The position numbers and the translations under genes were made by a program. Shown piece after piece: positions 2,590-60,981 of a stretch of DNA of 64,000 nt. Where the stretch lies: contig DATGLG010000067.1 of assembly GCA_035294245.1 (NCBI GenBank), forward strand, positions 173,726 through 237,725. Direction: 5' to 3'. Within the stretch, counting starts at the first letter, position 1, and every line of letters starts with the position of its first letter. The stretch comes from Alphaproteobacteria bacterium (GTDB lineage Bacteria > Pseudomonadota > Alphaproteobacteria > JACZXZ01). The notes under the pieces were generated by a model, which was not told the origin of the DNA, did no database searches, and saw only the letters and a list, made by a program, of their open reading frames with translations.

Positions 2590-3768
2590 ATGAACGCACC
2601 AGCTGCTTTGGGACAGCTCCTTCCCCTCGAGGCCTATACTTCGGACGAGTGGTTCCGCGCCGAGCAGGCCAAGCTGTTCGGCAAGGCCTGGGTCTTCGCG
2701 GGCATGGCCGAGGACCTGAGGGCGCCGGGCGATTACCAATGCGTCGATTCCGGCGCGTCCTCGCTGATTCTCCTGCGCGACAGACAGGGCGAGCTGCGCG
2801 CCTTCCACAATGTGTGCCGCCACCGCGGCGCGCGCCTGCTGGAAGGGCGCGGCAATGTGGGGAGCGCCATCACCTGCTTCTATCACAATTGGACCTATGA
2901 GCTGAGCGGCGCCTTGACCGGCGTCACCCTCGGGCGCGACCAGTTTCCCGGCATCGACAAGTCCTGCTATGGCCTGCGCCGGGCCCAGGTGGGGCGCTGG
3001 AAGAACCTCGTCTTCGTGAATCCCGATCCCGCCGCGGAATCCTTCGACGACTGGCTCGCCGGGGTGCCGGAGGCGCGCACCCTCAACGAGCCGGGCCAGC
3101 TCGCGCTCCACGATCCCGAGCGGCTGGTCGAGGTGTCGAGCGTGCGCTACCGCGTGCACGCCAATTGGAAGATCGTCGTCGAGAACTTCATCGACGGCTA
3201 TCACCTCCCGCTGCTGCACAAGGTCTCCCTCGGCGACGGCGATTTCATGAGGCAGAAATGGGCGCCGCGCGGCCGCCACGTCACCTTCTACCGCCCGCTC
3301 AAGCCCGGCATCTCCTATAACGACCAGCCCTTGCCGGTGATCGAGGGCATCCCGCCCACCTATGGTCTCGCCTATTACTGGCTCTTCCCCAGCGTGGCGA
3401 TCACCGAGACCGCGACCTTCTGGACGACCTTCCACGTCATCCCTCTCTCGGCCCGGGACAGCATCGTCCACAGTCGCCTGCGCGCGATGCCCGAGGCGCT
3501 CGCGCGCAAGGGCAGCCGGCAGGTGGCGGTGAACCAGGCGCTGCCGCGCCACGTGATCAGCGCCGAAGGTCCCTATGCGGAGATGCGGCTCGACCTGAGC
3601 GAGACCCATCCGCTCCAGTCGAACAACGTCATGGCCGAGGACATTTATGCCTGCGAGGCGGTGCAGCGGGGCATGGACTCGGGCTCCTGCGAGATCGGCC
3701 CCCTCTCCAAATGGGAATCGACTCTGACCTTCTTCCAGAAGCACGTGCTCGATTATATGGGGGCGTGA
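2590..3768 (+). CDS. Rieske (2Fe-2S) non-heme iron oxygenase alpha subunit, stand-alone (GbcA/CntA-like architecture)
   Basis: 392 aa; Rieske motif CRHRG...CFYHNW (CxH-x17-CxxH); catalytic domain with conserved His/Asp region. No beta subunit or reductase adjacent. Confidence 0.85.
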   Translation: MNAPAALGQLLPLEAYTSDEWFRAEQAKLFGKAWVFAGMAEDLRAPGDYQCVDSGASSLILLRDRQGELRAFHNVCRHRGARLLEGRGNVGSAITCFYHNWTYELSGALTGVTLGRDQFPGIDKSCYGLRRAQVGRWKNLVFVNPDPAAESFDDWLAGVPEARTLNEPGQLALHDPERLVEVSSVRYRVHANWKIVVENFIDGYHLPLLHKVSLGDGDFMRQKWAPRGRHVTFYRPLKPGISYNDQPLPVIEGIPPTYGLAYYWLFPSVAITETATFWTTFHVIPLSARDSIVHSRLRAMPEALARKGSRQVAVNQALPRHVISAEGPYAEMRLDLSETHPLQSNNVMAEDIYACEAVQRGMDSGSCEIGPLSKWESTLTFFQKHVLDYMGA

Positions 3769-3795
3769 GGCGCTTCGATTCGATCGAAGATCATC

Positions 3796-3911
3796 GTCAC
3801 CCCGGCCGACCCCGGATTGATCCGGGGAAGAGCCGGGCCCCAGCTTGAAGCGATGTCGCAGTGCTGGGCCCCGGATCGCGCCGCGCTGCCGCGCAGCTTG
3901 TCCGGGGTGAC
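3796..3911 (+). repeat. 116-bp MITE/REP-like structured repeat element, copy A (12-bp terminal inverted repeats gtcaccccggcc...ggccggggtgac)
   Basis: ~90% identical to the reverse complement of 5807..5922. Internal hairpins; no coding capacity. Confidence 0.65.
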
Positions 3912-4044
3912 GACGAGTGGAGCAAAATCCTACTTGATTCAGCAGCGAATGCAGGCAATCGTCGCGAAGCGATGACGTCGCGGATCACGAGCCAGCTCGG
4001 AGTCAAGACGCACGATCCCGTAATTCTTAGTAAGCTTATTTTAT

Positions 4045-4809
4045 CTAGGCTGCGCCGCCCGGTCGGCGCGCGCGCCGCTTGACAAATGCCGAAGCCGCAA
4101 GCTCCCGCTGCCCGGCCGGCTCCCGGCCTGCCGCGGCAAACAGGCTGAGCGCGAACCAAGAAGAGAATGCCTCCACCTCGCCACGCGACCCATCAAGACG
4201 AAGCCGGCCGTCGCGAATGGCGCTCTGGATTGGAACGTGGCCAAGCCAGATTTGTGTGAGGACACGCAAATTGGCTTCGACGAAAAGGTCGACGTCGAAG
4301 CCGGGATCGCGATAGCACAGATCGACAGCGCCGCGCTCGAAGACCAACCAGTAACGGCGTCGGCTGATCGGCACGCCGGAGAGTCGGAATTCGACGACCA
4401 ACCGCCGATTCCGCCTCGGCGCATGGGCCGCAACGTTGCGGCGAATGTCCCACATCAAAAGATCGGGGTCCAAATTCGCGGTATCGACGAGATCATGACG
4501 GAGCCAGCGCTGCGCCCAGAGCCCCATTTTCTCGACCACCGGGAAAAGCTCCCGGCCGGCCGCCGTCAGGTGATACTCGACGCCGCCACCCTCTCTGCGC
4601 CGACGCTCGACGATACCGGCGAACTGCAGCTGCCTGAGACGTTGCGTCAGCAGCGCCGACGACATTCGCGGCACCCCGCGCTGCAGATCGTTGAAGCGGA
4701 CGCTGCCGCACAACAGCTCCCGGATGACCAGCGGCATCCATCGCTCGGCCAATATCTCGGCCGCAAGGGCAATCGGACAGAACTGGCCGTATCCGCGTCT
4801 CTCAGCCAT
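4045..4809 (-). CDS. HxlR-family (MarR-like winged-helix) transcriptional regulator with ~130-aa C-terminal extension
   Basis: Start MAERRGYGQFCPIALAAEILAERWMPLVIRELL... is the HxlR signature. Last ~20 codons lie inside the duplicated junction segment 4015..4105. Confidence 0.75.
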   Translation of the reverse strand: MAERRGYGQFCPIALAAEILAERWMPLVIRELLCGSVRFNDLQRGVPRMSSALLTQRLRQLQFAGIVERRRREGGGVEYHLTAAGRELFPVVEKMGLWAQRWLRHDLVDTANLDPDLLMWDIRRNVAAHAPRRNRRLVVEFRLSGVPISRRRYWLVFERGAVDLCYRDPGFDVDLFVEANLRVLTQIWLGHVPIQSAIRDGRLRLDGSRGEVEAFSSWFALSLFAAAGREPAGQRELAASAFVKRRARRPGGAA

Positions 4810-4818
4810 GCCATATCC

Positions 4819-4888
4819 TAGCAAGAAACCACGTCGTGGCCACTTCACATTTTAAAGTTGAGGGCTCGGGCAGTCGGGGCGAAGCTCT
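4819..4888 (+). promoter_or_regulatory. ~70-bp promoter/operator module (copy 1) containing palindrome ccacgtcgtgg, upstream of PEP-CTERM gene and divergent from hxlR
   Basis: Recurs at 5952..6018 upstream of the ACAD-family gene (agcaagaaa...cacttcaca(t/a)tt(t/g)aa(a)gttga(g/a)ggctcgggc(a/g)gtcggggcgaagctctc). Confidence 0.4.
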
Positions 4889-4953
4889 CACACCGGGACA
4901 TGCGCGGCTCTCAAAGAGCATTACCCTCGTCGTCTTCTGCGAAGGAGACGTTT

Positions 4954-5742
4954 ATGTCGAATGGTAATTCCTTGGGCTTTCCGAACGGCGTACGCGCCGC
5001 GCTGCTCGTTGTCGCCGCCATACTGGCCAACACGAGCGCAGCAACTGCGGGCGTGTGGCAGTCGGGCGACGAGATCACTTACACCCAAGTCTCGTGGCCC
5101 GACAATGCGACGGCTGCCGCGCTGCTCACCGACCATTACAGCAGCGTGTATCTGTCCACCTCCGACGTTTTTGAGGTGGGCATCCCCGGCCCGAGCGGCT
5201 TTTCATTAAGCTTTGGCGATGCGTCGCATGTGCTGGCCTTTTTGCCCGAGGCCGGTATACCTGGGCCGCTCACCCAAAGTCAGACTAATCCCGGCTCCAG
5301 CGAATCCGGTCTGTTCGCTGGCGATGTGATGGCGTTGAAATTGGACGTTGACTTTTCGGATGCGGGGCTTCTGCTGGGCAGCTCCGGGATTCCGTTCGGG
5401 GACCTCGTCCTCAGCAACTTCCTGGTCGAAACATCCGACGCGGACCTCAACGGCTTAACCGTGCGCGAGTTTCTGGCCGACGACAACATGGCACTCGGTG
5501 GCGGTCCCAGCCTGAAACCCATCGCTATCATGGACTCGATTACCGAAGACGTGAATATTGCTTTTGATGGCGGTATCGTGACCCCGTTCGCGCAGGATCA
5601 TCTCGTGGCCCCCAGCATGCCCGTCTCTGCCGTGCCGGAGCCGTCCAGTTGGGTTCTGCTCGGCGCCGGGCTGGCGGCCCTCGCCGCGACCCGGCGCTGG
5701 CGAAAAACTAAAATCGGCGGCGGTCTCAAGCGCGTCTCGTGA
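4954..5742 (+). CDS. PEP-CTERM sorting-domain secreted protein
   Basis: RBS aaggag then ATG; signal peptide MSNGNSLGFPNGVRAALLVVAAILANTSAATA; C-terminus VPEPSSWVLLGAGLAALAATRRWRK is a PEP-CTERM motif. Confidence 0.75.
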   Translation: MSNGNSLGFPNGVRAALLVVAAILANTSAATAGVWQSGDEITYTQVSWPDNATAAALLTDHYSSVYLSTSDVFEVGIPGPSGFSLSFGDASHVLAFLPEAGIPGPLTQSQTNPGSSESGLFAGDVMALKLDVDFSDAGLLLGSSGIPFGDLVLSNFLVETSDADLNGLTVREFLADDNMALGGGPSLKPIAIMDSITEDVNIAFDGGIVTPFAQDHLVAPSMPVSAVPEPSSWVLLGAGLAALAATRRWRKTKIGGGLKRVS

Positions 5743-5806
5743 GTCGTAGAGAAGGCGATTGCGCTCCGGATTGGCTGGAGAAGGGCAGTTGCATCCGTTT
5801 TTATTC

Positions 5807-5922
5807 GTCACCCCGGACAAGCCGTGCGAAAGCACGGCGCGATCCGGGGCCCAGTACTGCGACATCGCTTCAAGCTGGGCCCCGGCTTCCCCCGGATCAC
5901 GTTCGGGGTCGGCCGGGGTGAC
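5807..5922 (+). repeat. 116-bp MITE/REP-like structured repeat element, copy B (inverted relative to copy A)
   Basis: gtcaccccggac...gtcggccggggtgac. Contains gccgtgc-gaaa-gcacggc hairpin and long imperfect hairpin gatccggggcccag...ctgggccccgg. Confidence 0.65.
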
Positions 5923-5951
5923 ATGGGGGAATCGAAATGAGAGACGTTAAT

Positions 5952-6018
5952 CACGAGCAAGAAAAAGCGTCTCCTCCACTTCACATATTGAAGTTGAAGG
6001 CTCGGGCGGTCGGGGCGA
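5952..6018 (+). promoter_or_regulatory. ~70-bp promoter/operator module (copy 2) upstream of ACAD-family gene
   Basis: Paralogous to 4819..4888; ORF-track translations of both contain ARAVGAKLS. Confidence 0.4.
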
Positions 6019-6050
6019 AGCTCTCGCGGACGCCCAAATCGAGGTCCGCC

Positions 6051-7184
6051 ATGTCCCGATCTCTCGACCTGGAAGCGCTTGCGGAGAGCATTGGACCGCG
6101 CTTTGCCGAGGGCGCGGCCGAGCGCGATCAAGGCGACGTCTTCGTATCGGGACACTACGATATTCTGAAAGAGCACAAGGTCTTTTCGGCGCTGGTTCCT
6201 GTCGAGCTCGGGGGTGCCGGTGCGCGCCATAGCGCCATGTGCGCCTTTCTGCGGCGGCTCGCCCATTATTGCCCATCGACGGCGCTGGCGCTGTCCATGC
6301 ACCAGCACCTCGTCGCGGCCGCGGTCTACCACCACCTCAACGGCAGGCCCGGAAAGGCGCTGCTGGAGCGGGTTGCAGCCAACGAGACGGTTCTCATCTC
6401 GACCGGCGCCAATGATTGGATGGAATCGAGCGGCACCATGGAGCGCGCCGCCGGCGGCTACCGCGTCAGCGCCAGAAAGCCGTTCGGCAGCGGTTCGCCT
6501 AAGGGCGGGGTCCTGGTGACCTCCGCGACGTTTAACGATCCCAAGGACGGCTGGCAGGTCCTGCATTTCGCCGTTCCTTTCGCCGCGCCCGGGATTTCGC
6601 TGGCCGATGATTGGCGCGCGCTCGGCATGCGCTCAACCGGCTCCCACACGATCGTTCTGGATAACGTCTTCGTGCCGGATGATGCGATCGCGCTGCGGCG
6701 GCCGCGCGGCCGGTTCCATCCCGCCTGGAATGTGATTCTGACTGTGGCAATGCCGCTGATTATGTCGGTTTACGCCGGGGTCGCAGAGGCTGCTGCGGCG
6801 ATTGGAGGCGAGCAGGCAAAAAAGCGCTCGAATGATCCAGCCGTGCCGTATCTGCTCGGCGAGCTGGCCAACGAGCTGACGACGGTCCAGCTTGCCATTG
6901 CCGACATGGTTCGCCTCGCCAACGACTTCGATTTCGCCATGAAGCTGGAGGTTGCCAACGCCATGCTGGTGCGCAAGACGATCGTCGCCGAGCATGTGCT
7001 GTCGACGGTGGAAAAGGCATTGGAGGCGGCCGGCGGCGCCGGCTTTTATCGTCCTGCCGGGCTCGAGCGGCTGTTGCGCGACGCCCATGGCGCGCAATTC
7101 CATCCCCTCTCAGCGAAACGCCAGCACCGGTTCACCGGCCGCATTGCGCTCGGCCTCGATCCTATCGCGGATGCGCCGGCCTGA
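6051..7184 (+). CDS. Acyl-CoA dehydrogenase family flavoprotein (possibly ACAD-type flavin monooxygenase)
   Basis: 378 aa from MSRSLDLEALAESIGPRF...; ACAD N/middle/C domain architecture by eye. Exact substrate unknown. Confidence 0.7.
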   Translation: MSRSLDLEALAESIGPRFAEGAAERDQGDVFVSGHYDILKEHKVFSALVPVELGGAGARHSAMCAFLRRLAHYCPSTALALSMHQHLVAAAVYHHLNGRPGKALLERVAANETVLISTGANDWMESSGTMERAAGGYRVSARKPFGSGSPKGGVLVTSATFNDPKDGWQVLHFAVPFAAPGISLADDWRALGMRSTGSHTIVLDNVFVPDDAIALRRPRGRFHPAWNVILTVAMPLIMSVYAGVAEAAAAIGGEQAKKRSNDPAVPYLLGELANELTTVQLAIADMVRLANDFDFAMKLEVANAMLVRKTIVAEHVLSTVEKALEAAGGAGFYRPAGLERLLRDAHGAQFHPLSAKRQHRFTGRIALGLDPIADAPA

Positions 7185-7196
7185 AGTCTGGGAGCA

Positions 7197-7300
7197 GTCG
7201 TGGGGTGGACGCCGGCTCCTGCGAGATCGGCTCCCTCTCCAAATGGGAATCGACGCTGCCTTTCTTCCAGAAGCACGTGCTCGACGATATGGGGGTGTGA
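7197..7300 (+). pseudogene. Remnant 3' end (34 codons plus stop) of a Rieske oxygenase gene; duplicate of 3670..3773
   Basis: Reads ...RGVDAGSCEIGSLSKWESTLPFFQKHVLDDMGV* versus RGMDSGSCEIGPLSKWESTLTFFQKHVLDYMGA* in the intact gene. No upstream coding body. Confidence 0.55.
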
Positions 7301-7637
7301 GGCTCTCCCGAGAGCGAGGTCATTGCGAGCGCCCGCGGCCGAGCCAGCAAGGCGGCGGGAGCGCGGCAATCCAGTCTCCTGGATCGCCACGATCGCGGAG
7401 CCTGTCCTCGGGCCGGCTTTCAGCCGGACCCGTGGGCGATCTCGCGATGATGGTTGCGACGCGACAAGGACGTCACCGCGAGCCGGAGGGGAAGCTTTGC
7501 GATGACGACGGGCCCGTGATTCTGCGCCGCTCCCGTAACCCTTAGTAAACTTATCTGGTCTAGGCTGCGCCGCCTGATCGGCGAGCGCGACGCTTGACAA
7601 ATGTCGATGCCGCAGGCGCCGCTCAGGATTCGAGCCT

Positions 7638-9875
7638 GTGAGAGCCTGGACCATCATGAGACGGCGCGGCGAGGTTTCGCGGAATAAGGAAAAGGAAGAG
7701 GCGGCGGATGCGGCCGCCCCGGCGGTCGCCACGGAGCGCAAGGGCTGGCGCCGGCGGTTGAAATTCTGGCGCCGCGGCACGGCGGCCCCGCGCCGCCCGC
7801 GCAAGGCGCGCAAGCCGCGGCGGCGCTCCTTCCTGAGGAACATCCGCATCGGCCTGCGCATCTGGGCGCTCGCCGGCCTCGGCGCCGCCGGCATCGCCGC
7901 CCTCTCGGCCTCCTATCTCGTCACCGACAATCGCATCAGCGCCGCCATGGCCGCGACCGCGGCGGACGAGCATTTCGCCCGCCTGGTGAACAAGGTCGCC
8001 GGCGTCATCGCGCGGATGCACACCGACGAGACCACCTATCTCCTCGCGCGGGACACGCAGTTCTCCTCGCAATTCCAGTCGGACGCCGTCGACGCCGATA
8101 CCGCCCTCTCCCTCGTCGAGCACGATCCGGTCGAGCCCGCCGTCGATGCCAAGGTGAAGGCGCTCCGCAGCGCCCTCGGCAAATATGTCGGCCAGTTCAA
8201 CATGGTCGACATGACCTTGAGCGCCATGGCCGGGGAGGGGCAGAACCTGCAAGTGACCCTCGCCGCCGCCGCCAAGGCGATCGAGGACGGCATCGCGGCG
8301 GCCCATGCGGATGCGCTCCGCGCCATGTTCCTCGAGCTCCGGGAGAGCGAGGCGGATTTCCGCCTCACCACCGATGCCAAATACGTGGCGGCCTTCGATA
8401 AGCTCGTCGCCGGCTTCGCCGCGGCGCTGCAAAAGGCGGAGATCGACGCTACGGCGAAGGCCAAGCTCGCCGAGGCCCTCGACCATTACAAGGCCGCCTT
8501 GCACGACTACGCCGACAAGGCGACGGCGCTCGCAGCGCAAACGACCAAGCTGCGCGCCGCCTATGGCGAGCTCGAGGCGCTGCCCGGCAGCCTCTACGAG
8601 GCGACGAGCCAGATGCGCGACAAGGTTGAGCTCACCGCCGACGAGGCGCGGCGCTCGGGCCGCGCCACCATGACGGCGCTCTGCATCGGCATCTTCTCCC
8701 TCTTCATGATCGTGACGTTTGTGCTCTCACGCAGCATCGGCCGGCCGCTGCGGCGCATCATCGCGGTGGTGCGGCGGGTCGCCGATGGCGATGCCGATGT
8801 CGAGGTGACGATCGATCTCGTCGGCCGCGACGAGGTGGGTGCGATGGCCGAGGCCGTCGAGGTTTTCAAGGCCAATGCCCGCGAGCGTGAGCGCCTGCAG
8901 GCGGAGCAGGCCGAGGCGGCGCAGGCGGCGGCGGCCGAGCGCGAGAGGCGCCGCATCGAGGATGCCGAGCGCGCCCGTGCGGAGGCCGAGCGCGCCGAGG
9001 CCCTGCGCCGCGAGGCCGATGCCGAGCGCCGGCGCATGCTCCAGGAGCTCGCCCAGGCGCTCGAGCAGAACATGCAGGCCCTGACCACGGCGGTGAGCGG
9101 GGCCGCAAGCGAGCTGCGCATGACGGCCGAGGGCATGGCTGCGACGGCCTCGACCGCGGGGCAGCAATCGGCGGCGGTGGCCGCCGCCTCGGAGCAGGCC
9201 TCGGGCAATGTCCAGGCGGTCGCCTCGGCGACGGAGGAGCTCGCCGCCTCGATCGCCGAGATCGGGCGCCAGGTCAGCCAGTCAACCGAGGTCGCCCGCA
9301 AGGCGGTGGCGCGCGCGCAGGATACGAGCAAGACCATCGAGAGCCTGGCCGAGGCGGCGCAGCGGATCGGGCAGGTCATCGATCTCATCAACGACATCGC
9401 CAGCCAGACCAATCTCCTGGCGCTCAACGCCACGATCGAGGCGGCGCGCGCGGGGGAGGCCGGCAAGGGCTTCGCCGTGGTCGCCGCCGAGGTCAAGGCC
9501 CTCGCCAGCCAGACCGCCAAGGCGACCGAGGAGATCGGCAGCCAGATCGGCGAGATGCAGCAGGCGACCCGCACGGCGGTCGCGGCGATCGAGGGCATCC
9601 GCAGCACCATCGCCGAGGTGAGCGAGACCGCGACGGCGATCGAGGCCGCGGTGGGCCAGCAGGGGGCCGCGACCGGGGAGATCGCCCAGAATATCCAGCG
9701 CGCGGCGGCCGGCACGCAGGAGGTCTCGACCAACATCGCCGGCATTACCGACGCCATCGACCGCACCGGCGGCTCGGCGAGCCGCGTGCTCACCGCGGCG
9801 AACGATCTCGCCGGCCAGGCGGACCGCCTCGATACGGAAGTCAAGCGCTTCGTCGGGCAAATCCGCGCGATGTAG
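7638..9875 (+). CDS. Methyl-accepting chemotaxis protein (two TM segments, periplasmic sensor, HAMP, Ala/Glu/Arg-rich linker, MCP signalling domain)
   Basis: Signalling-domain hallmark [37 protein letters not shown]. Exact start uncertain (alternative ATG at 7656). Upstream ttgaca at 7596. Confidence 0.85.
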
Positions 9876-45484: not shown

Positions 45485-46906
45485 TTAAGCGTGGTTTTCA
45501 CGCTGGCGCAGGAAATGGAAGAACTCGACGCCTTCCCTCAGGCGGCGCTTCATCATCTCGGAGCTCTTCACCATCTCCCAGGTGAGCTCCGCGATCTTGC
45601 TCGGACGGAAATAGAAGCGCTTATAGAAGACCTTGAGGGCCTCGAAGATTTCCTCGTTGGAGAGGTGGGGGTATTGCAGCGAGGAAATCTGGAATCCATC
45701 GCCCGCGACCAGGCTGTCGCTGTTCTCGTGCAGCCAACCCTTCATCACGGCCTCGCGATAGAGCTCGGTTCCCGGATAGGGGGCCGCGAGCGAGACCTGG
45801 ATGGTGTGGGGATTGACCTGCTGAGCGAAGCGGATCGTCTCCTCGATCGTCTCCTTCGTCTCGCCGGGCAGCCCCACGATGAAGGTGCCGTGGATGGTGA
45901 TGCCGAGCTTGCGGCAATCCTCGGAGAATTTGCGCGCAACCTCGATGCGCATGCCCTTCTTGATGTTGTGGAGGATTTGCTGGTTGCCCGACTCATAGCC
46001 GACGAGAAGGAGACGCAGGCCGTTCTCGCGCAGCACCTTGAGCGTCTCATAGGGCACGTTCGCCTTGGCGTTGCAGGACCAGGTCACGCCGAGCCTGCCG
46101 AGGCCGCGGGCAATCTCCTCGGCGCGGGGCCGATCATCAGTAAAGGTGTCGTCGTCGAAGAAGAATTCCTTCACCTGGGGGAAGTAGCGCTTGGCCAGCG
46201 CGATCTCGTCGATCACGTTCCTGGCGCTGCGCGTGCGATAGCGATGGCCGCCAATGGTCTGCGGCCACAGGCAGAAGGTGCAGCGCGACTTGCAGCCGCG
46301 TCCGGTATAGAGCGAGAGATAAGGATGCTGCAGATAGCCGATGAAGTAGTCCTCGATCACGAGGTCGCGCTTATAGACCTCGGTGACCCAGGGAAGCACG
46401 TCCATGTTCTCGATGATGGCGCGCTCCGGATTGTGCACGGCCTGGCCATCCTTGCGATAGCTGATGCCGTCGACCTCCGCGAAGGGCCGCCCCTCGGCGA
46501 TCTCCTTGATCGTGAAGTCAAATTCGGTCCGCGCCACGAAGTCGATCGCCTCCGAGGCCATAAGCGAGGGCTCGGGCGAGACGGCGACATGGGCGCCGAC
46601 GAGGCCGATCATCAGCTTGGGGTTCGCGCGCTTGAACGCCTCCGCCACCTTCACGTCGGAATGGAAGGAGGGCGTGCTCGTGTGCATGACGAGGAGCTCG
46701 TAATCTCCGGCCAGCGCCACGGTATCCTCGACGCTCAAGCCGCGGGCCGGCGCGTCGATCAGCTTGCTGCCGGGGACGAGCGCCGCCGGCTGGGCGAGCC
46801 AGGTGGGGTACCAGAAGGAGCGGATCTCGCGCTTGGCCTGGTAACGGGAGCCGGCGCCGCCGTCGAAGCCCTCATAGGATGGAGGATTGAGAAACAGGGT
46901 CTTCAT
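45485..46906 (-). CDS. hpnJ: Hopanoid biosynthesis-associated radical SAM protein HpnJ (B12-binding plus radical SAM)
   Basis: Start MKTLFLNPPSYEGFDGGAGSRYQAKREI (ATG rc at 46906); radical SAM CxxxCxxC in GRGCKSRCTFC. The 722-aa ORF is an over-extension. Confidence 0.8.
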   Translation of the reverse strand: MKTLFLNPPSYEGFDGGAGSRYQAKREIRSFWYPTWLAQPAALVPGSKLIDAPARGLSVEDTVALAGDYELLVMHTSTPSFHSDVKVAEAFKRANPKLMIGLVGAHVAVSPEPSLMASEAIDFVARTEFDFTIKEIAEGRPFAEVDGISYRKDGQAVHNPERAIIENMDVLPWVTEVYKRDLVIEDYFIGYLQHPYLSLYTGRGCKSRCTFCLWPQTIGGHRYRTRSARNVIDEIALAKRYFPQVKEFFFDDDTFTDDRPRAEEIARGLGRLGVTWSCNAKANVPYETLKVLRENGLRLLLVGYESGNQQILHNIKKGMRIEVARKFSEDCRKLGITIHGTFIVGLPGETKETIEETIRFAQQVNPHTIQVSLAAPYPGTELYREAVMKGWLHENSDSLVAGDGFQISSLQYPHLSNEEIFEALKVFYKRFYFRPSKIAELTWEMVKSSEMMKRRLREGVEFFHFLRQRENHA

Positions 46907-48057
46907 TCCGGCACCTCGGCGCCCCTCATGTTGACAACCATCTGCCCGTCCGTTTGAACCGAGAATTTCTGCGCGCGCCATTCCACCCTGCGTCCGATGA
47001 AGCTGGCGGCACGAATGGTGAACGTGATCAGGTCCCGCAACGGCACAAGCCACGGCCGCAGCAGACCCGGCCCTCCCAAGGTGGTATGGGCAACCCAATG
47101 CATCACGCCGCGCAACAGCACCGCGCCCCCGACAAGCGCCACGGCGCTTGCCCGGAAGCCGGTCGCGGCGGCCAATAAGATCGACAGCGGAAATGAATCC
47201 GTCAAGAAGCTGAAAGCATAGCCGAGCGGCCGCACCGTGCGCATCGTGCGAGCCCAGCGGAGCTCGTGGCGAAACAGCATCTTGAGATTGGGCTCCTCGA
47301 TGCTGAGCTCGACGATGTGCCGCGCCAGCGCCACCTTGTATCCCTGCGCCGCCACCAGCCGGCCGAGCATGTGATCGTCGGCAAGATAGGAAGCCAGCGC
47401 CTCGATGCCGCCGATCGCATTGAGAGCGCGGCGGCGCACCGCCATGGTGGCGCCGAAGCAGTATTCCAGGGGCTCGGAGATGAGCGCCACGAGCACCGAG
47501 GGCAGGAACCACTCGTTGATGAACATGGCGCCGAGCCGGCTCGCAAGCTGGGGGCGCGCGGGCGTGCCGCGATAGAGGCAGGTCGCCGCCCCTACTGCGG
47601 GATCGGTAAAGGCTGCGGCGAGGTCGGCGAGATATCCGGGGCCGACGCGACAATCCGCATCCGCGATCACCAGGATGTCGTGGCGTGCCTGCTTCAGCAT
47701 GTTGGCGACGTTGGAGATCTTGTAATTGCTGCCGATTACGCGGGGATCGATCACGAGCGCGGGCTCGCGCTCGGGGAATTCCGCAATCAGGCGCCGGATC
47801 ACGGGAATGGCCGGATCGCTCGCGTCCCGCACGCCGAAGAGGATCTGGAAGGCGGGGTAGTCCTGGGCGCAGAACGAGCGCAAATCCTCATAAAGCCGCG
47901 GCTCGAGGCCGCAGACCGGCTTGAGCACCGTGATCGGCGGCAGCTCCTGAGCGCGGGCCGCAGGCCGACGCTTTAGACCGGCGACGCGCAGGACCGCGAG
48001 AATCGTATAGCCCAGCGAGGCCACGATGATTGCATAGCCAGCAATCGTCAGCAGCAT
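46903..48057 (-). CDS. hpnI: Hopanoid-associated GT2 glycosyltransferase HpnI
   Basis: Start MLLTIAGYAIIVASLGYTILAV (ATG rc at 48057); VLKPVCG and DADC motifs; ATGA overlap with hpnJ. Confidence 0.75.
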   Translation of the reverse strand: MLLTIAGYAIIVASLGYTILAVLRVAGLKRRPAARAQELPPITVLKPVCGLEPRLYEDLRSFCAQDYPAFQILFGVRDASDPAIPVIRRLIAEFPEREPALVIDPRVIGSNYKISNVANMLKQARHDILVIADADCRVGPGYLADLAAAFTDPAVGAATCLYRGTPARPQLASRLGAMFINEWFLPSVLVALISEPLEYCFGATMAVRRRALNAIGGIEALASYLADDHMLGRLVAAQGYKVALARHIVELSIEEPNLKMLFRHELRWARTMRTVRPLGYAFSFLTDSFPLSILLAAATGFRASAVALVGGAVLLRGVMHWVAHTTLGGPGLLRPWLVPLRDLITFTIRAASFIGRRVEWRAQKFSVQTDGQMVVNMRGAEVPE

Positions 48058-59598: not shown

Positions 59599-60633
59599 CT
59601 ATCGCGCGCGGCGCAGCAAGACCCCCAGGCCGATCAGCCCCGCGCCGAGGAGGAGGATCGAGGCCGGCTCGGGAATAGCGACCTGGACCGGATCGAGCTC
59701 GAGGCCGGGGTCCGAGTTGTCGACGAGCAGCATATTGGGGAAATTCAGCGGCTGGTCGAGCGAGAGCAGATCCGTGAGCGGATCGTAGCTCGCGCTCAGG
59801 CCCAGCGTGCCGAAGTCGTGATTGAAGGCGTTGGCGAGCGCGCTCAGCACCTGCCCGTCGTTCTCGCCGGCGGTCGGATTCACGGTGGCGATGAAATCGC
59901 CCGGACAAAGCGGCAGCGATGTCAGATCGGGGCTGGAATTGCAATTGGCATCGAGCCCTTGGGGGTCATAGAGGCCGAACGACACCGAGGATGGGCCGGT
60001 TCCGCTCGCGTCATCGCCTGTCGCGTCTCCGCTCATCGCGCCGCCCCCGCCCATGCTGCCCCTGGAGCCGCCTCCGCCACCGCCTCCGCCACCGCCTTGC
60101 ATGAAATTGCCGCCCCCGGGCTCGAGGGTGCGGTTCCGGTAGCCCTGGGCGACGGTGCCGATGGCCGTCATTCCCGGAATGGTGACGATCGCGAATCCGG
60201 CCAGGCGGTTGGGCACCATGGCCTGAGGGCCGGGGAAGGGCGGCGTCGGCTGCCCGAAGGCATTGAGCGGGCGTCCGAAAAGATCGACCGCGCCGACCAT
60301 GGCCGGCTGGGTCGCGATCGTGGCCATCGGCGTGCCGGCCGGCAGCTTACCGGCGAGGATCGCCCCGGCGATCGCCTTGTTGATCGCGTCGACCCATTCC
60401 TTCGCCTTCCGCTGCGAGGCCTGCGCGGGGGTGTCCGTGGCGACCTTGGTGACCACCGCCGGCGCCGTCAGCTTCACTCCCTTGATGAAGAAGACCAGGA
60501 CATCGGTGCCCGACTGCCTCGGAACCGCCTGGGTGTAGACGTAATTCATGCCCTGCGCCTGCGCCGTGTGCATCGACACCAGCAGGGCGCCGAAGCTCGC
60601 CGTGATGACGGCGGCCGCAATCCGCATGCTCAT
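59599..60633 (-). CDS. PEP-CTERM sorting-domain secreted protein with Gly-rich low-complexity region
   Basis: Signal MSMRIAAAVITASFGALLVSMHTAQAQG; C-terminus IPEPASILLLGAGLIGLGVLLRRAR; poly-Gly from (ccgcctccgccac)x2 tract near 60060..60095. Confidence 0.75.
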   Translation of the reverse strand: MSMRIAAAVITASFGALLVSMHTAQAQGMNYVYTQAVPRQSGTDVLVFFIKGVKLTAPAVVTKVATDTPAQASQRKAKEWVDAINKAIAGAILAGKLPAGTPMATIATQPAMVGAVDLFGRPLNAFGQPTPPFPGPQAMVPNRLAGFAIVTIPGMTAIGTVAQGYRNRTLEPGGGNFMQGGGGGGGGGGSRGSMGGGGAMSGDATGDDASGTGPSSVSFGLYDPQGLDANCNSSPDLTSLPLCPGDFIATVNPTAGENDGQVLSALANAFNHDFGTLGLSASYDPLTDLLSLDQPLNFPNMLLVDNSDPGLELDPVQVAIPEPASILLLGAGLIGLGVLLRRAR

Positions 60634-60981
60634 CGTGTCCTCCCTTTGCGCGCTCGATCGCATCTCCCTTCGAAGTTGCGCCGCAGGAGGAGCCTTGGCT
60701 GCGCGGCACTGCGCCGCCTCGGCGAGTCACGCTCGTTGTTGCTTTTCCGGTGTCTCCTGCTGGCCTGCCTCGTGTTAACGACGCGCATTAACCATACGCA
60801 AATGCTGTGCCATCTTGATCATATTGAGAAAAATCAGGGTGTTATCGGCGTGGCGGTGGCGGTCGGCCCGTGAACATGTCAAAGGTGCCGACGCTTCTCC
60901 CGGATGCGCAGGCGGGTGACGGCCCCTTATGTCCCGATGACGCTCGCCATCGTGGCGTCGCGACGCCCGGTAGCCGAAGCG

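What the first reader, a model, noticed from the sequence alone, without database searches (positions are those of the whole stretch)
4045..7184. Candidate regulatory unit of unknown function: extended HxlR-type regulator, PEP-CTERM exoprotein and ACAD-type flavoprotein
The HxlR-like protein (4045..4809) is about twice the usual length (~255 aa against ~120). It carries a C-terminal extension of unknown function, partly encoded by repeat-derived sequence.

Its neighbours are a PEP-CTERM protein with no recognisable domains besides the signal peptide and sorting tag, and an acyl-CoA-dehydrogenase-fold flavoprotein. The flavoprotein could be a dehydrogenase or an ACAD-type monooxygenase.

HxlR/YodB/HypR-type regulators commonly sense electrophiles or oxidants. 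I do not know a described precedent for coupling one to an exosortase-dependent surface protein. The unit sits on the repeat-bounded island, so it may be a mobile accessory trait.
Basis: inference. Interest (0 to 1): 0.55.

Follow-up and report, generated by a model that had tools for sequence, protein, structure and literature searches.

The report
Sensor-regulator module that captured a surface protein
The three genes are real: the core is a widespread two-gene unit, a DNA-binding regulator fused to a lipid-binding-type domain next to a flavin oxygenase, and in this genome and a few relatives a cell-surface protein gene sits in its control region with a second copy of the regulator's likely binding site.

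Summary
All three genes are present as described. The regulator's "extra half" is not an oddity. It is an SCP2-fold domain conserved over the full length in thousands of ~240-aa HxlR-family proteins. Only the last 14 aa go beyond the usual family end.

The conserved unit is a pair, not a trio. In 69 of 80 species-level loci, hxlR-SCP2 lies divergent from this ACAD-fold flavoprotein. The spacer is usually 97-120 bp and carries one position-fixed palindrome, ACTTCA-N5-TGAAGT. The flavoprotein looks like a group-D flavin monooxygenase rather than a dehydrogenase.

Here, 1,066 bp carrying the PEP-CTERM gene and a structured repeat sit inside that spacer. A 70-bp duplication gives the PEP-CTERM gene and the ACAD gene one palindrome each; these are the only two copies in 64 kb.

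None of the 80 loci has this PEP-CTERM gene. However, all six of its closest relatives (≥70% identity) lie beside genes of HxlR-SCP2 units, in three arrangements. The closest regulator relative carries an unrelated PEP-CTERM gene after its ACAD gene.

GC3 of all three genes is 3-4 SD below neighbouring genes, which suggests acquisition from elsewhere. Regulation and the inducing signal are inferred, not shown.

Verdict: a new variant of a known regulator/monooxygenase kind, of moderate interest.

The parts
3660..3774 (+). D1a: the 3' end of the intact Rieske oxygenase alpha-subunit gene (2590..3768). Left copy of the outer direct repeat.
   Evidence: It is 87% identical to 7191-7306.
3796..3913 (.). 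REP-A: a 118-nt structured intergenic repeat, inverted relative to REP-B.
   Evidence: There are only two copies in the window, about 90% alike with gaps.
4013..4105 (.). D2a: a repeat covering the last 19 codons of hxlR plus 32 nt downstream.
   Evidence: It is 84% identical to 7528-7620.
4045..4809 (-). hxlR-SCP2 regulator gene, 254 aa. It has a winged-helix HxlR domain (aa 19-105) and an SCP2-fold domain (about aa 110-230). C11 and C165 are invariant across the family.
   Evidence: Pfam. Family alignments A1 and A3. AF2 model with pLDDT 85 and Foldseek hits to HypR/YodB/HxlR and to SCP2. C11 aligns with YodB Cys6.
4820..4889 (+). Copy 1 of the duplicated control region (D3a), lying between hxlR and the PEP-CTERM gene.
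   Evidence: 4810-4889 plus 6026-6050 add up to 105 nt, within the 97-120 nt usual for undisrupted spacers in relatives.
4842..4858 (.). Candidate operator, copy 1: ACTTCACATTTTAAAGT, one mismatch to the palindrome.
4954..5742 (+). PEP-CTERM protein gene, 262 aa: signal peptide, a ~185-aa passenger domain with no Pfam model, and the PEP-CTERM tag.
5805..5922 (.). REP-B: a 118-nt structured repeat between the PEP-CTERM gene and control-region copy 2.
   Evidence: RNA fold -79.8 kcal/mol, z = -5.9. It is 59 nt longer in the other assembly, L083.
5956..6025 (+). Copy 2 of the duplicated control region (D3b), upstream of the ACAD-fold gene. It is the copy more like the single spacer of the closest relative, L179.
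5978..5994 (.). Candidate operator, copy 2: ACTTCACATATTGAAGT, a perfect 6-5-6 palindrome.
   Evidence: these are the only two matches in 64 kb, with 0.01 expected by chance.
6051..7184 (+). ACAD-fold flavoprotein gene, 377 aa. It is most like group-D flavin-dependent monooxygenases and N-oxygenases.
7191..7306 (+). D1b: a remnant of a diverged Rieske oxygenase 3' end. The last 31-32 codons are still in frame with a stop (about 7205-7300).
   Evidence: JGI calls a 31-aa gene here.
7307..7527 (.). A different intergenic repeat-like stretch (REP-C) between D1b and D2b.
   Evidence: A 63-nt match at 79% to L003.
7528..7620 (.). D2b: the second copy of the hxlR 3'-end repeat, just upstream of the chemoreceptor gene (7638..9875). 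Read in reverse it still gives [19 protein letters not shown] followed by a stop.
   Evidence: plus my own translation of the sequence.

Best explanation
**What it is.** The locus is a self-contained control unit that was probably acquired from elsewhere.

**Core.** Its core is a one-component sensor-regulator: an HxlR winged helix fused to an SCP2-fold domain. It is transcribed divergently from an ACAD-fold, probably flavin-dependent, monooxygenase. The ~105-bp spacer between them holds a single palindromic operator, ACTTCA-N5-TGAAGT.

**Insertion.** In this genome a PEP-CTERM (exosortase-sorted) surface-protein gene and a structured repeat lie inside that spacer. Seventy bp of the spacer are duplicated, so the PEP-CTERM gene and the monooxygenase gene each sit behind their own operator and promoter copy.

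**Proposed mechanism (inferred).** A regulator dimer binds both operator copies and holds the hxlR, PEP-CTERM and monooxygenase promoters off. It is released when a hydrophobic or electrophilic small molecule occupies the SCP2 pocket or modifies the invariant cysteines C11 and C165. The cell then makes the oxygenase and displays the surface protein together.

**Shown:** domain content, folds, synteny, operator conservation, the duplication, the recurrent PEP-CTERM linkage and the foreign composition.

**Inferred:** DNA binding, repression rather than activation, the inducer, and the enzyme's reaction.
For: **Regulator**
- HxlR hit with E 1.3e-22.
- There are 4,790 and 7,454 homologues in two capped searches, typically 228-240 aa and conserved end to end. 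Many carry a precomputed PF02036 (SCP2) annotation.
- The AF2 model (pLDDT 85) matches HypR/YodB/HxlR in its N-terminal half. Its C-terminal half matches SCP2 proteins and the SCP2-like domain of alkylsulfatases.
- C11 aligns with the sensing Cys6 of YodB. C11 and C165 are invariant in 52 sequences spanning 45-88% identity.

**Pair**
- An ACAD homologue lies divergent and adjacent in 69 of 80 genome loci, at 50-86% identity. The loci include Xanthobacteraceae, Stellaceae, Acetobacteraceae, Rhodospirillaceae, Bryobacterales and a Myxococcaceae MAG. The spacer is 97-120 nt in most of them.
- Genes flanking the pair are almost all different from one genome to the next.

**Operator**
- Apart from the two ribosome-binding sites, the palindrome is the only conserved element in the spacer.
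- The strict pattern is present in 54 of 80 spacers, most often 51 nt upstream of the hxlR ATG. Only 13 other hits occur on both strands of 989 kb.
- Distant clades carry variant palindromes at the same place.

**Insertion**
- Two 70-nt copies lie in the window, each with the box, and these are the only two boxes in 64 kb.
- 80 + 25 nt rebuild a normal spacer.
- The same layout, with matching duplication end points, occurs in L096 and L178, where all three proteins are only about 64-77% identical to the window's.

**Linkage of PEP-CTERM genes to these units**
- P0124 (76% identical) follows a 91%-identical ACAD gene after 46 nt.
- P0122 and P0123 (78-80%) follow a methyltransferase. That enzyme is 62-74% identical to the divergent partner of HxlR-SCP2 genes in five loci, and three of those spacers (L026-L028) carry the same box.
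- L179, the closest hxlR relative, has a non-homologous PEP-CTERM gene 20 nt after its ACAD gene.

**Enzyme type**
- The best solved relatives are the nitrososynthases KijD3, DnmZ and ORF36, then XiaF, MsuC and DszC.
- The best NCBIfam hits are HsaA, SfnB and HpaB-type enzymes.
- Where MCAD-type dehydrogenases have the catalytic Glu in Y-E-G, this protein reads F-H-P-L-S (from the sequence and from my own knowledge of the ACAD motif).

**Precedent**
- Rv3095 is annotated there as an HTH transcriptional regulator (HxlR-type from my own knowledge); it represses the divergent ACAD-fold monooxygenase gene Rv3094c (PMC9904262).

**Foreign origin**
- GC3 of the three genes is 0.73-0.77, against 0.873±0.033 for 36 other genes in the window.
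Against: - There are no expression or DNA-binding data.
- No sigma-70-like promoter was found by the simple scan.
- The PEP-CTERM gene is absent from all 80 species-level loci and from the flanks of 79 of 80 more distant PEP-family loci. Any functional coupling is therefore narrow and dispensable.
- For P0122, P0123 and P0124 the contigs stop before any hxlR gene, so the regulator's presence there is inferred.
- Part of the linkage could be inheritance of one ancestral arrangement followed by local reshuffling, rather than repeated selection.
- The SCP2 Pfam score of the window protein itself is just under the curated cut-off (20.0 vs 21.3).
- No flavin reductase gene is conserved next to the oxygenase.
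- B. subtilis HxlR is an activator (named so in the PDB entries 7bzd/7bze), so the sign of regulation is open.
Confidence: 0.6

Rival explanations
1. The PEP-CTERM gene is a neutral passenger. The hxlR/ACAD neighbourhood is simply a tolerated insertion or recombination spot in PEP-CTERM-rich soil alphaproteobacteria. The gene uses its own promoter, and the 70-bp duplication is a by-product of the insertion or rearrangement with no regulatory meaning.
For: - Most pairs lack any PEP-CTERM gene (0 of 80).
- The direct 70-bp repeats allow easy loss. L029 has a spacer 86-89% identical to three of the four L096/L178 copies (77% to L096 copy 2) and has no insert.
- A dispersed, polymorphic structured repeat travels with the insert.
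- The window holds another PEP-CTERM gene elsewhere, so such genes are not rare in this genome.
- There are 64 nt of unique sequence upstream of the PEP-CTERM start codon that could hold a promoter of its own.
Against: - All six cluster representatives of the ≥70%-identity PEP subclade lie beside HxlR-SCP2 unit genes, in three different arrangements.
- A non-homologous PEP-CTERM gene occupies the post-ACAD position in L179.
- The box is retained in all six spacer copies of the three genomes that have the insert (one or two mismatches to the strict palindrome in five of them).
- The two copies in a genome appear to be homogenised with each other. In L178, copy 1 and copy 2 are 91% alike, while the orthologous copy 2 of L096 and L178 are 80% alike.
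Confidence: 0.25
2. This is a lipid-catabolic unit. The flavoprotein is a true acyl-CoA (or acyl-carrier) dehydrogenase. The SCP2 domain senses fatty acids or acyl-CoA, in the manner of FadR- or FadP-type control.
For: - All three ACAD domains are detected.
- T. thermophilus and short-chain ACADs, FadE16 and cyclohexane-carbonyl-CoA dehydrogenase are among the hits.
- SCP2 proteins bind fatty acids and acyl-CoA. The structures matched include a C16-bound mosquito SCP2.
Against: - The top-scoring solved relatives and NCBIfam models are oxygenases, and no dehydrogenase model comes near its cut-off.
- There is no Glu at the MCAD-type catalytic position; the sequence reads FHPLS.
- No beta-oxidation genes are conserved next to the pair.
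- In some relatives the regulator's alternative partner is a UbiE/ArsM-like methyltransferase or a BagK/FevA1-like FAD oxygenase, which are not lipid-catabolic enzymes.
Confidence: 0.12
3. The signal is thiol chemistry, not ligand binding. The regulator is a YodB/HypR/QsrR-like redox or electrophile sensor. It switches by alkylation of, or disulfide formation between, C11 and C165, and the SCP2 domain serves mainly as a structural or dimerisation platform.
For: - C11 aligns with YodB Cys6.
- C11 and C165 are invariant across 52 diverse family members.
- The structural neighbours are the redox regulators HypR and YodB.
Against: - An entire conserved SCP2-fold domain is a costly addition if only one partner cysteine is needed.
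- The distance between C11 and C165 in the model could not be measured with the tools available.
- The partner enzymes are not the classic quinone or nitro reductases of YodB regulons.
Confidence: 0.3

Closest known systems
Rv3095 / Rv3094c (/ Rv3093c) of Mycobacterium tuberculosis (PMC9904262)
   Same: An HTH regulator gene (HxlR-type from my own knowledge) lies next to an ACAD-fold flavin-dependent monooxygenase gene that it represses. Rv3094c is among the sequence hits of the window's flavoprotein (7f70, E 4.8e-10).
   Different: From my own knowledge, Rv3095 is short (about 158 aa) and is not known to carry an SCP2 domain. The mycobacterial cluster includes a flavin reductase (Rv3093c), whereas none is conserved here. 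Similarity to Rv3094c is weak and partial. No surface-protein gene is involved there.
YodB, HypR, QsrR and HxlR: one-domain thiol or aldehyde sensors of the HxlR/DUF24 family
   Same: They share the winged-helix fold and the conserved N-terminal Cys position. From my own knowledge, those regulators also bind palindromic operators near the genes they control.
   Different: Those proteins are about 105-130 aa and have no ligand-binding domain. Here a ~125-aa SCP2-fold domain with a second invariant Cys is fused to the winged helix. The target genes differ: an ACAD-fold oxygenase, a methyltransferase or a BBE-like oxidase, rather than quinone, azo or nitro reductases or the RuMP genes.
SCP2 sterol/lipid carrier domains, including the C-terminal SCP2-like domain of alkylsulfatases SdsA1, Pisa1 and YjcS
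   Same: The fold of residues ~110-230 matches (Foldseek probability 1.0, E 1e-5 to 1e-3). In distant family members the domain is annotated with PF02036.
   Different: Here it is fused to a DNA-binding domain. I found no paper describing an HxlR-SCP2 fusion. Ligand binding has not been tested.
PEP-CTERM/exosortase substrates, such as the flocculation protein PepA and XDP1
   Same: Signal peptide plus a C-terminal PEP-CTERM tag above the curated thresholds.
   Different: None of the named PEP-CTERM subfamilies is matched beyond the tag, and all whole-protein scores are below their cut-offs. The passenger is a separate, widespread domain with no Pfam model. From my own knowledge, PEP-CTERM genes are usually discussed with EPS loci and PrsK/PrsR-type control, not with a one-component small-molecule sensor.
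Nitrososynthases KijD3, DnmZ and ORF36, and other group-D two-component flavin monooxygenases (DszC, HsaA, XiaF, MsuC)
   Same: These are the best-scoring solved relatives over nearly the full length (E 2e-25 to 1e-11). As in KijD3 (aligned), the dehydrogenase catalytic Glu is absent.
   Different: Similarity is low and all NCBIfam equivalog scores are far below their cut-offs. There is no sugar-nucleotide or sulfur-acquisition gene context. The substrate is unknown.

Membership tests
HxlR/DUF24 family transcription regulators (PF01638) | Sequence match to the HxlR winged-helix model above the curated threshold | tested here: met
   79.9 bits against a cut-off of 20.8, aa 19-105. A profile of the family hits YodB, HypR (YybR) and HxlR structures.
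HxlR/DUF24 family transcription regulators (PF01638) | Winged-helix fold like the solved members | tested here: met
   The AF2 model matches HypR, YodB, HxlR, PA1607 and PA1374. TM-score normalised to the target is 0.5-0.78.
HxlR/DUF24 family transcription regulators (PF01638) | Binds a palindromic operator near the regulated gene | not testable with these tools
   Only comparative support is available. A position-fixed palindrome is found in 54 of 80 spacers. Binding itself has not been shown.
YodB/HypR/QsrR-type thiol sensors | Conserved sensing Cys in helix alpha-1 | tested here: met
   C11 aligns with YodB Cys6 and is invariant in 52 sequences. Its reactivity has not been tested.
SCP2 sterol-transfer family (PF02036) | Sequence match above the Pfam gathering score | tested here: not met
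   20.0 bits against a cut-off of 21.3 for the window protein. Many homologues at about 50% identity do carry a precomputed PF02036 annotation.
SCP2 sterol-transfer family (PF02036) | SCP2 alpha/beta fold | tested here: met
   Foldseek hits to yeast, insect, human and archaeal SCP2 and to alkylsulfatase C-terminal domains, probability 1.0.
SCP2 sterol-transfer family (PF02036) | Binds a lipid or other hydrophobic ligand in an internal cavity | not testable with these tools
   No coordinates or binding assay were available.
PEP-CTERM / exosortase-dependent proteins (TIGR02595, PF07589) | C-terminal PEP motif, hydrophobic helix and basic cluster, above the curated cut-offs, plus an N-terminal signal peptide | tested here: met
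   Pfam 29.0 vs 20.7 and TIGR02595 24.9 vs 16. The signal-peptide-like N-terminus was read from the sequence.
PEP-CTERM / exosortase-dependent proteins (TIGR02595, PF07589) | An exosortase (EpsH/Xrt) is encoded in the same genome | tested here: inconclusive
   None was found among the seven multi-TM ORFs of the 64-kb window scanned with Pfam; six other multi-TM ORFs, taken to be ABC-transporter permeases, were not scanned. A second PEP-CTERM protein lies at 59599-60663. The rest of the genome could not be searched.
Acyl-CoA dehydrogenases (true dehydrogenases) | Three-domain ACAD architecture | tested here: met
   Acyl-CoA_dh_N is above its cut-off (33.9 vs 22.9) and Acyl-CoA_dh_2 is above its cut-off (37.2 vs 22.7). 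The middle domain is below its cut-off (28.5 vs 33.3).
Acyl-CoA dehydrogenases (true dehydrogenases) | Catalytic glutamate base at the MCAD Glu376 (Y-E-G) position | tested here: not met
   The region after the conserved R-D-A reads HGAQFHPLS, with Pro at that position. This comes from the sequence, the KijD3 alignment and the ACAD motif from my own knowledge. The alternative helix-G base (IVD/LCAD type) was not examined.
Group-D two-component flavin monooxygenases (HsaA, DszC, SfnB, nitrososynthases) | Membership of a curated equivalog | tested here: not met
   The best scores are 51-71 bits, against cut-offs of 430-850. It resembles the class but belongs to no named family.
Group-D two-component flavin monooxygenases (HsaA, DszC, SfnB, nitrososynthases) | A partner flavin reductase is encoded alongside | tested here: not met
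   No gene is conserved next to the pair in the 80 loci, and none lies within the island. A reductase encoded elsewhere remains possible.
Genomic island / mobile element | Integrase, transposase or element-type terminal repeats | tested here: not met
   The 3.5-kb unit holds only the three genes. The bounding repeats are duplicated 3' ends of the Rieske and hxlR genes.
Genomic island / mobile element | Atypical composition and variable genomic context | tested here: met
   GC3 is 3-4 SD below that of neighbouring genes. Genes flanking the pair differ in nearly every genome.

The most novel reading that the evidence does not exclude
HxlR-SCP2 proteins would be a large, uncharacterised class of one-component sensors for hydrophobic or electrophilic small molecules. 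In some soil alphaproteobacteria, their control regions would have repeatedly recruited exosortase-sorted surface proteins, here by duplicating the operator. The cell envelope would then be remodelled in response to the same chemical cue that induces an oxygenase. That would be a chemical-input route to PEP-CTERM protein display, distinct from the EPS-linked two-component control usually assumed.
Probability: 0.3. Interest if true: 0.6.

Novelty: new variant of a known kind. Interest (0 to 1): 0.45.

Why it matters
**A large unstudied regulator family.** It identifies a very large family (thousands of sequences across several phyla) whose sensor module, operator and usual target can now be stated. 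This gives direct handles for experiments: a 17-bp box, two invariant cysteines and an SCP2 pocket.

**A possible case of regulatory capture.** A gene sits inside a divergent control region with a duplicated operator, and the two copies appear to be kept alike by gene conversion.

**An environmental input for PEP-CTERM proteins.** Very few of these proteins have a known function or trigger.

**An undescribed surface domain.** The passenger domain is widespread, folds confidently in the model and has no Pfam model.

None of this overturns current understanding, and the coupling to the surface protein is restricted to a narrow clade.

Tried and rejected
- **Wrong reading frame.** My first neighbourhood BLAST used the PEP-CTERM gene in the wrong frame (start 4955). 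I repeated it with the ATG at 4954. The result for the 80 loci was the same: no hits.
- **"The trio never co-occurs elsewhere."** I held this view. I rejected it when L096, L178, L087-L090, L092-L095 and L179 were examined.
- **[quoted passage not shown]** This is not supported. The second repeat copy keeps the same frame and stop codon, so the direction of derivation is uncertain.
- **Structured or known RNA.** Rfam found no match in 3000-8500.
- **Hairpin over the PEP-CTERM ribosome-binding site (4931-4950).** It is no better than shuffled sequence, z = -0.17.
- **Promoter scan.** No sigma-70-like promoter was found.
- **Literature.** There were no relevant papers for HxlR+SCP2, HxlR+"sterol carrier" or HxlR+PEP-CTERM.
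- **Exosortase in the window.** None was found among the seven multi-TM ORFs scanned; six presumed ABC permeases were not scanned.
- **PEP-CTERM tail scan of the 80 loci.** My own regex scan has imperfect sensitivity: the first version missed the window's own gene, and the loosened version still missed a 114-aa PEP-CTERM protein in L179.
- **History of the outer duplication (D1/D2).** Tandem duplication with deletion, and integration of a diverged allele, each need at least two events. I could not distinguish between them.

Full report
**1. What is at the coordinates**

Three genes are present.

- hxlR-like gene, 4045..4809 (-), 254 aa.
- PEP-CTERM gene, 4954..5742 (+), 262 aa. The ATG is at 4954 and is preceded by GAAGGAGA.
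- ACAD-fold gene, 6051..7184 (+), 377 aa.

Pfam and NCBIfam give the following.

| Gene | Hits |
|---|---|
| hxlR-like | HxlR on aa 19-105 (E 1.3e-22); a sub-threshold SCP2 hit on aa 138-217 |
| PEP-CTERM | Only the PEP-CTERM tag, above both curated cut-offs |
| ACAD-fold | Acyl-CoA_dh_N, _M and _2 |

The left neighbour is a Rieske oxygenase alpha subunit (2590..3768). The right neighbour is a methyl-accepting chemoreceptor (7638..9875).

The same sequence is assembled independently in JGI, NCBI and Logan data at 100% identity. It is therefore not an assembly artefact. The source is an uncultured alphaproteobacterium, on a 307-kb contig.

**2. Repeats**

There are four repeat pairs.

| Name | Copies | Identity | What it covers |
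|---|---|---|---|
| D1 | 3660-3774 and 7191-7306 | 87% | 3' end of the Rieske gene |
| D2 | 4013-4105 and 7528-7620 | 84% | Last 19 codons of hxlR plus 32 nt |
| D3 | 4820-4889 and 5956-6025 | 84% | Upstream of the PEP-CTERM gene and of the ACAD gene |
| REP-A / REP-B | 3796-3913 and 5805-5922, inverted | ~90% | 118-nt element |

REP-B folds into a strongly structured element (z = -5.9). D1 and D2 bracket the three genes as direct repeats.

D1b still reads as the last 31-32 codons of a diverged Rieske gene. D2b still reads as an hxlR tail with its stop codon. The outer repeats are therefore duplicated gene ends, a rearrangement scar, and not the termini of a mobile element. No integrase or transposase is present.

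**3. The regulator's extension is a normal family feature**

Two capped homologue searches returned 4,790 and 7,454 hits. Typical lengths are 228-240 aa and the proteins are conserved along the whole length. Many of the more distant hits carry precomputed HxlR plus SCP2 annotations.

The window protein exceeds the usual family end by only 14 aa ([14 protein letters not shown]).

An AlphaFold2 model built on 52 sequences has pLDDT 85. Foldseek matches its N-terminal half to HypR, YodB, HxlR and PA1607. It matches the C-terminal half to SCP2 proteins and to the SCP2-like domain of alkylsulfatases.

C11 aligns with the sensing Cys6 of YodB. C11 and C165 are invariant in the 52-sequence alignment.

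I found no paper that describes an HxlR-SCP2 fusion.

**4. The conserved unit is a pair**

A scan of one genome per species returned 468 relatives, and I examined the best 80 loci, at 84-50% identity.

- In 69 loci an ACAD homologue is the divergent neighbour. The spacer is usually 97-120 nt.
- Two of the other 11 loci are cut by a contig end.
- Five have a UbiE/ArsM-like methyltransferase as the divergent partner.
- Two actinobacterial loci have a BagK/FevA1-like FAD oxygenase instead.

Beyond the pair, flanking genes are almost all different from genome to genome. The pair behaves as a self-contained unit.

**5. The operator**

I aligned 35 spacers with the window's two reconstructed spacers. 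The only conserved elements were the two ribosome-binding sites and aCTTCAnATnTTnAAGTTG. The core of this is the inverted repeat ACTTCA-N5-TGAAGT.

A strict version of the pattern occurs in 54 of 80 spacers, most often 51 nt upstream of the hxlR ATG. There are 13 other hits on both strands of 989 kb. More distant clades carry variant palindromes at the same position. Three methyltransferase-type spacers (L026-L028) carry the same box.

In the 64-kb window the palindrome occurs exactly twice, at 4842-4858 (one mismatch) and 5978-5994 (perfect). Chance expectation is 0.01.

**6. The PEP-CTERM gene lies inside the spacer**

The segments 4810-4889 and 6026-6050 add up to 105 nt, which is a normal spacer length. 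It follows that 4890-5955 has been inserted together with a 70-nt duplication. This segment holds the PEP-CTERM 5' region, the gene, REP-B and 33 further nt.

Each of the PEP-CTERM and ACAD genes now sits behind one copy of the box. Copy 2 is the more similar to the single spacer of the closest relative, L179.

**7. Does the trio recur?**

It does not recur in the 80 species-level loci, where there are no tblastn hits. It is also absent from 79 of 80 metagenome loci encoding PEP-family relatives at 41-55% identity.

However, the six closest PEP-family clusters (≥70% identity) all sit beside genes of HxlR-SCP2 units.

- **Window, L096 (P0125) and L178 (P0126).** The order is hxlR <> PEP -> ACAD, with the spacer duplicated at matching end points. 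The three proteins are only about 64-77% identical to the window's.
- **L087-L090 (P0124).** The ACAD gene (91% identical) is followed after 46 nt by the PEP gene.
- **L092-L095 (P0122 and P0123).** The PEP gene follows a methyltransferase. That enzyme is 62-74% identical to the divergent partner of HxlR-SCP2 genes in L026-L028, L061 and L078.

At 65% identity (P0127) and below, the linkage is gone.

The closest hxlR relative, L179 (87% identical; ACAD 91%), has an undisrupted spacer. It carries a different, non-homologous PEP-CTERM gene 20 nt after its ACAD gene. L182 (88%) has the pair only.

The two spacer copies within one genome are more alike than orthologous copies are between genomes. 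In L178, copies 1 and 2 are 91% alike, while copy 2 of L096 and copy 2 of L178 are 80% alike. This suggests gene conversion. L029 has a spacer 86-89% identical to three of the four L096/L178 copies (77% to L096 copy 2) and has no insert, as expected if recombination between the repeats deletes it.

I conclude that the coupling is real and recurrent, but narrow in distribution and dispensable.

**8. The flavoprotein**

The best solved relatives are the nitrososynthases KijD3, DnmZ and ORF36, followed by XiaF, MsuC, DszC and Rv3094c. True ACADs score lower.

The best NCBIfam models are HsaA, SfnB and p-hydroxyphenylacetate hydroxylase. All are far below their cut-offs.

At the position of the MCAD catalytic Glu the protein has Pro (…RDAHGAQFHPLS…).

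The most likely reading is a group-D, reduced-flavin-dependent oxygenase of unknown substrate. No reductase gene is conserved nearby.

There is a described precedent for an HTH repressor of this kind beside an ACAD-fold monooxygenase: Rv3095/Rv3094c (PMC9904262).

**9. The PEP-CTERM passenger domain**

AlphaFold2 gives a confident model (pLDDT 88 overall, about 97 in the core). It has no Foldseek neighbour in the PDB.

A profile search of 1.84 billion representative proteins found 3,094 relatives, of which 546 have E ≤ 1e-30. Many are proteins of 400-3,270 aa with 2-4 tandem copies of the domain. Examples combine it with Big_9, cadherin-like, HYR, PKD or SpaA domains and with type-IX secretion tails.

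It is thus a widespread surface-protein module with no Pfam model, here in single copy with a PEP-CTERM anchor.

No exosortase gene was found among the seven multi-TM ORFs of the window that were scanned; six presumed ABC permeases were not scanned. A second PEP-CTERM protein is encoded at 59599-60663.

**10. Origin**

GC3 is 0.749 for hxlR, 0.734 for the PEP-CTERM gene and 0.770 for the ACAD gene. For 36 other genes in the window it is 0.873±0.033. The three genes are alike in composition and differ from their surroundings. Together with the variable context of the pair, this favours acquisition as a block.

**11. Mechanism proposed**

This part is inferred. A regulator dimer occupies the palindrome or palindromes and controls the divergent promoters. 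By analogy with Rv3095, YodB and QsrR it most likely represses them. A hydrophobic ligand in the SCP2 pocket, or modification of C11 and C165, releases it. The oxygenase and the surface protein are then made together.

The rival explanations are a neutral-passenger PEP-CTERM gene, a true lipid dehydrogenase unit, and purely thiol-based sensing. They are weighed in the fields for rival explanations.

**12. Verdict**

- **Observation:** confirmed.
- **Interpretation:** partly supported.
- **Novelty:** a new variant of a known kind. An HxlR-type regulator with an ACAD-fold monooxygenase is known. The additions here are a fused SCP2 sensor domain, a defined operator and a lineage-restricted capture of PEP-CTERM genes.
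- **Interest:** moderate.

Noticed in passing
window 4954-5742 (passenger domain, about aa 30-215): The passenger domain of the PEP-CTERM protein has no Pfam model. Even so, it has 3,094 relatives among 1.84 billion representative proteins. It often occurs as 2-4 tandem copies in large proteins that also carry Big_9, cadherin, HYR, PKD or SpaA domains and T9SS tails. Its AF2 model is confident (core pLDDT about 97) and has no Foldseek neighbour in the PDB.
   Followed up: partly
window 59599-60663 (-): A second, unrelated PEP-CTERM protein (354 aa). The organism therefore has several exosortase substrates. No exosortase gene was found in the 64-kb window.
   Followed up: partly
window 7205-7300 and 7528-7620: Two in-frame gene-end remnants lie between the ACAD gene and the chemoreceptor gene. 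One is the last 31-32 codons of a diverged Rieske oxygenase. The other is the last 19 codons of a diverged hxlR, with its stop codon. They point to an earlier duplication or to integration of a second allele.
   Followed up: partly
window 3796-3913 and 5805-5922; L083 about 4013-4071: A 118-nt, strongly structured repeat with terminal inverted GTCACCCCGG/CCGGGGTGAC (z = -5.9). It occurs only twice in the window, both times in this island. In another assembly of the same organism (GCA_037025085.1) the second copy is 59 nt longer, so it is polymorphic between assemblies.
   Followed up: partly
L026, L027, L028, L061, L078; L074, L077: Some HxlR-SCP2 genes have a different divergent partner. In five loci it is a UbiE/ArsM-like SAM methyltransferase. 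In two actinobacterial loci it is a BagK/FevA1-like FAD oxygenase. L026-L028 carry the same operator and L074/L077 a closely similar one; L061 and L078 do not clearly carry it.
   Followed up: partly
L179 3063-3743 and 1197-1541: The closest relative of the window's regulator carries a non-homologous PEP-CTERM gene directly after its ACAD gene. A further small PEP-CTERM gene lies 1.5 kb beyond that.
   Followed up: partly
L060-L080, spacers upstream of hxlR: The operator varies with clade while keeping its position. Examples are TAGTTCAAAATCTGAAGC in Acidobacteriota-type loci, CAACTTTCAAATCTGTAGTTG in one Rhodospirillaceae group and TAGTATAAAAAATGTAGT in another. This is a possible case of regulator and operator co-evolving.
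   Followed up: no
window 45485-47512 (-): A radical-SAM protein with a weak, sub-threshold B12-binding-domain hit (675 aa). It has the lowest GC3 (0.751) among the other genes of the window, so it may be another acquired gene.
   Followed up: no
window 7307-7527: A different repeat-like intergenic stretch, with a 63-nt match at 79% to an intergenic site in the related MAG locus L003.
   Followed up: no
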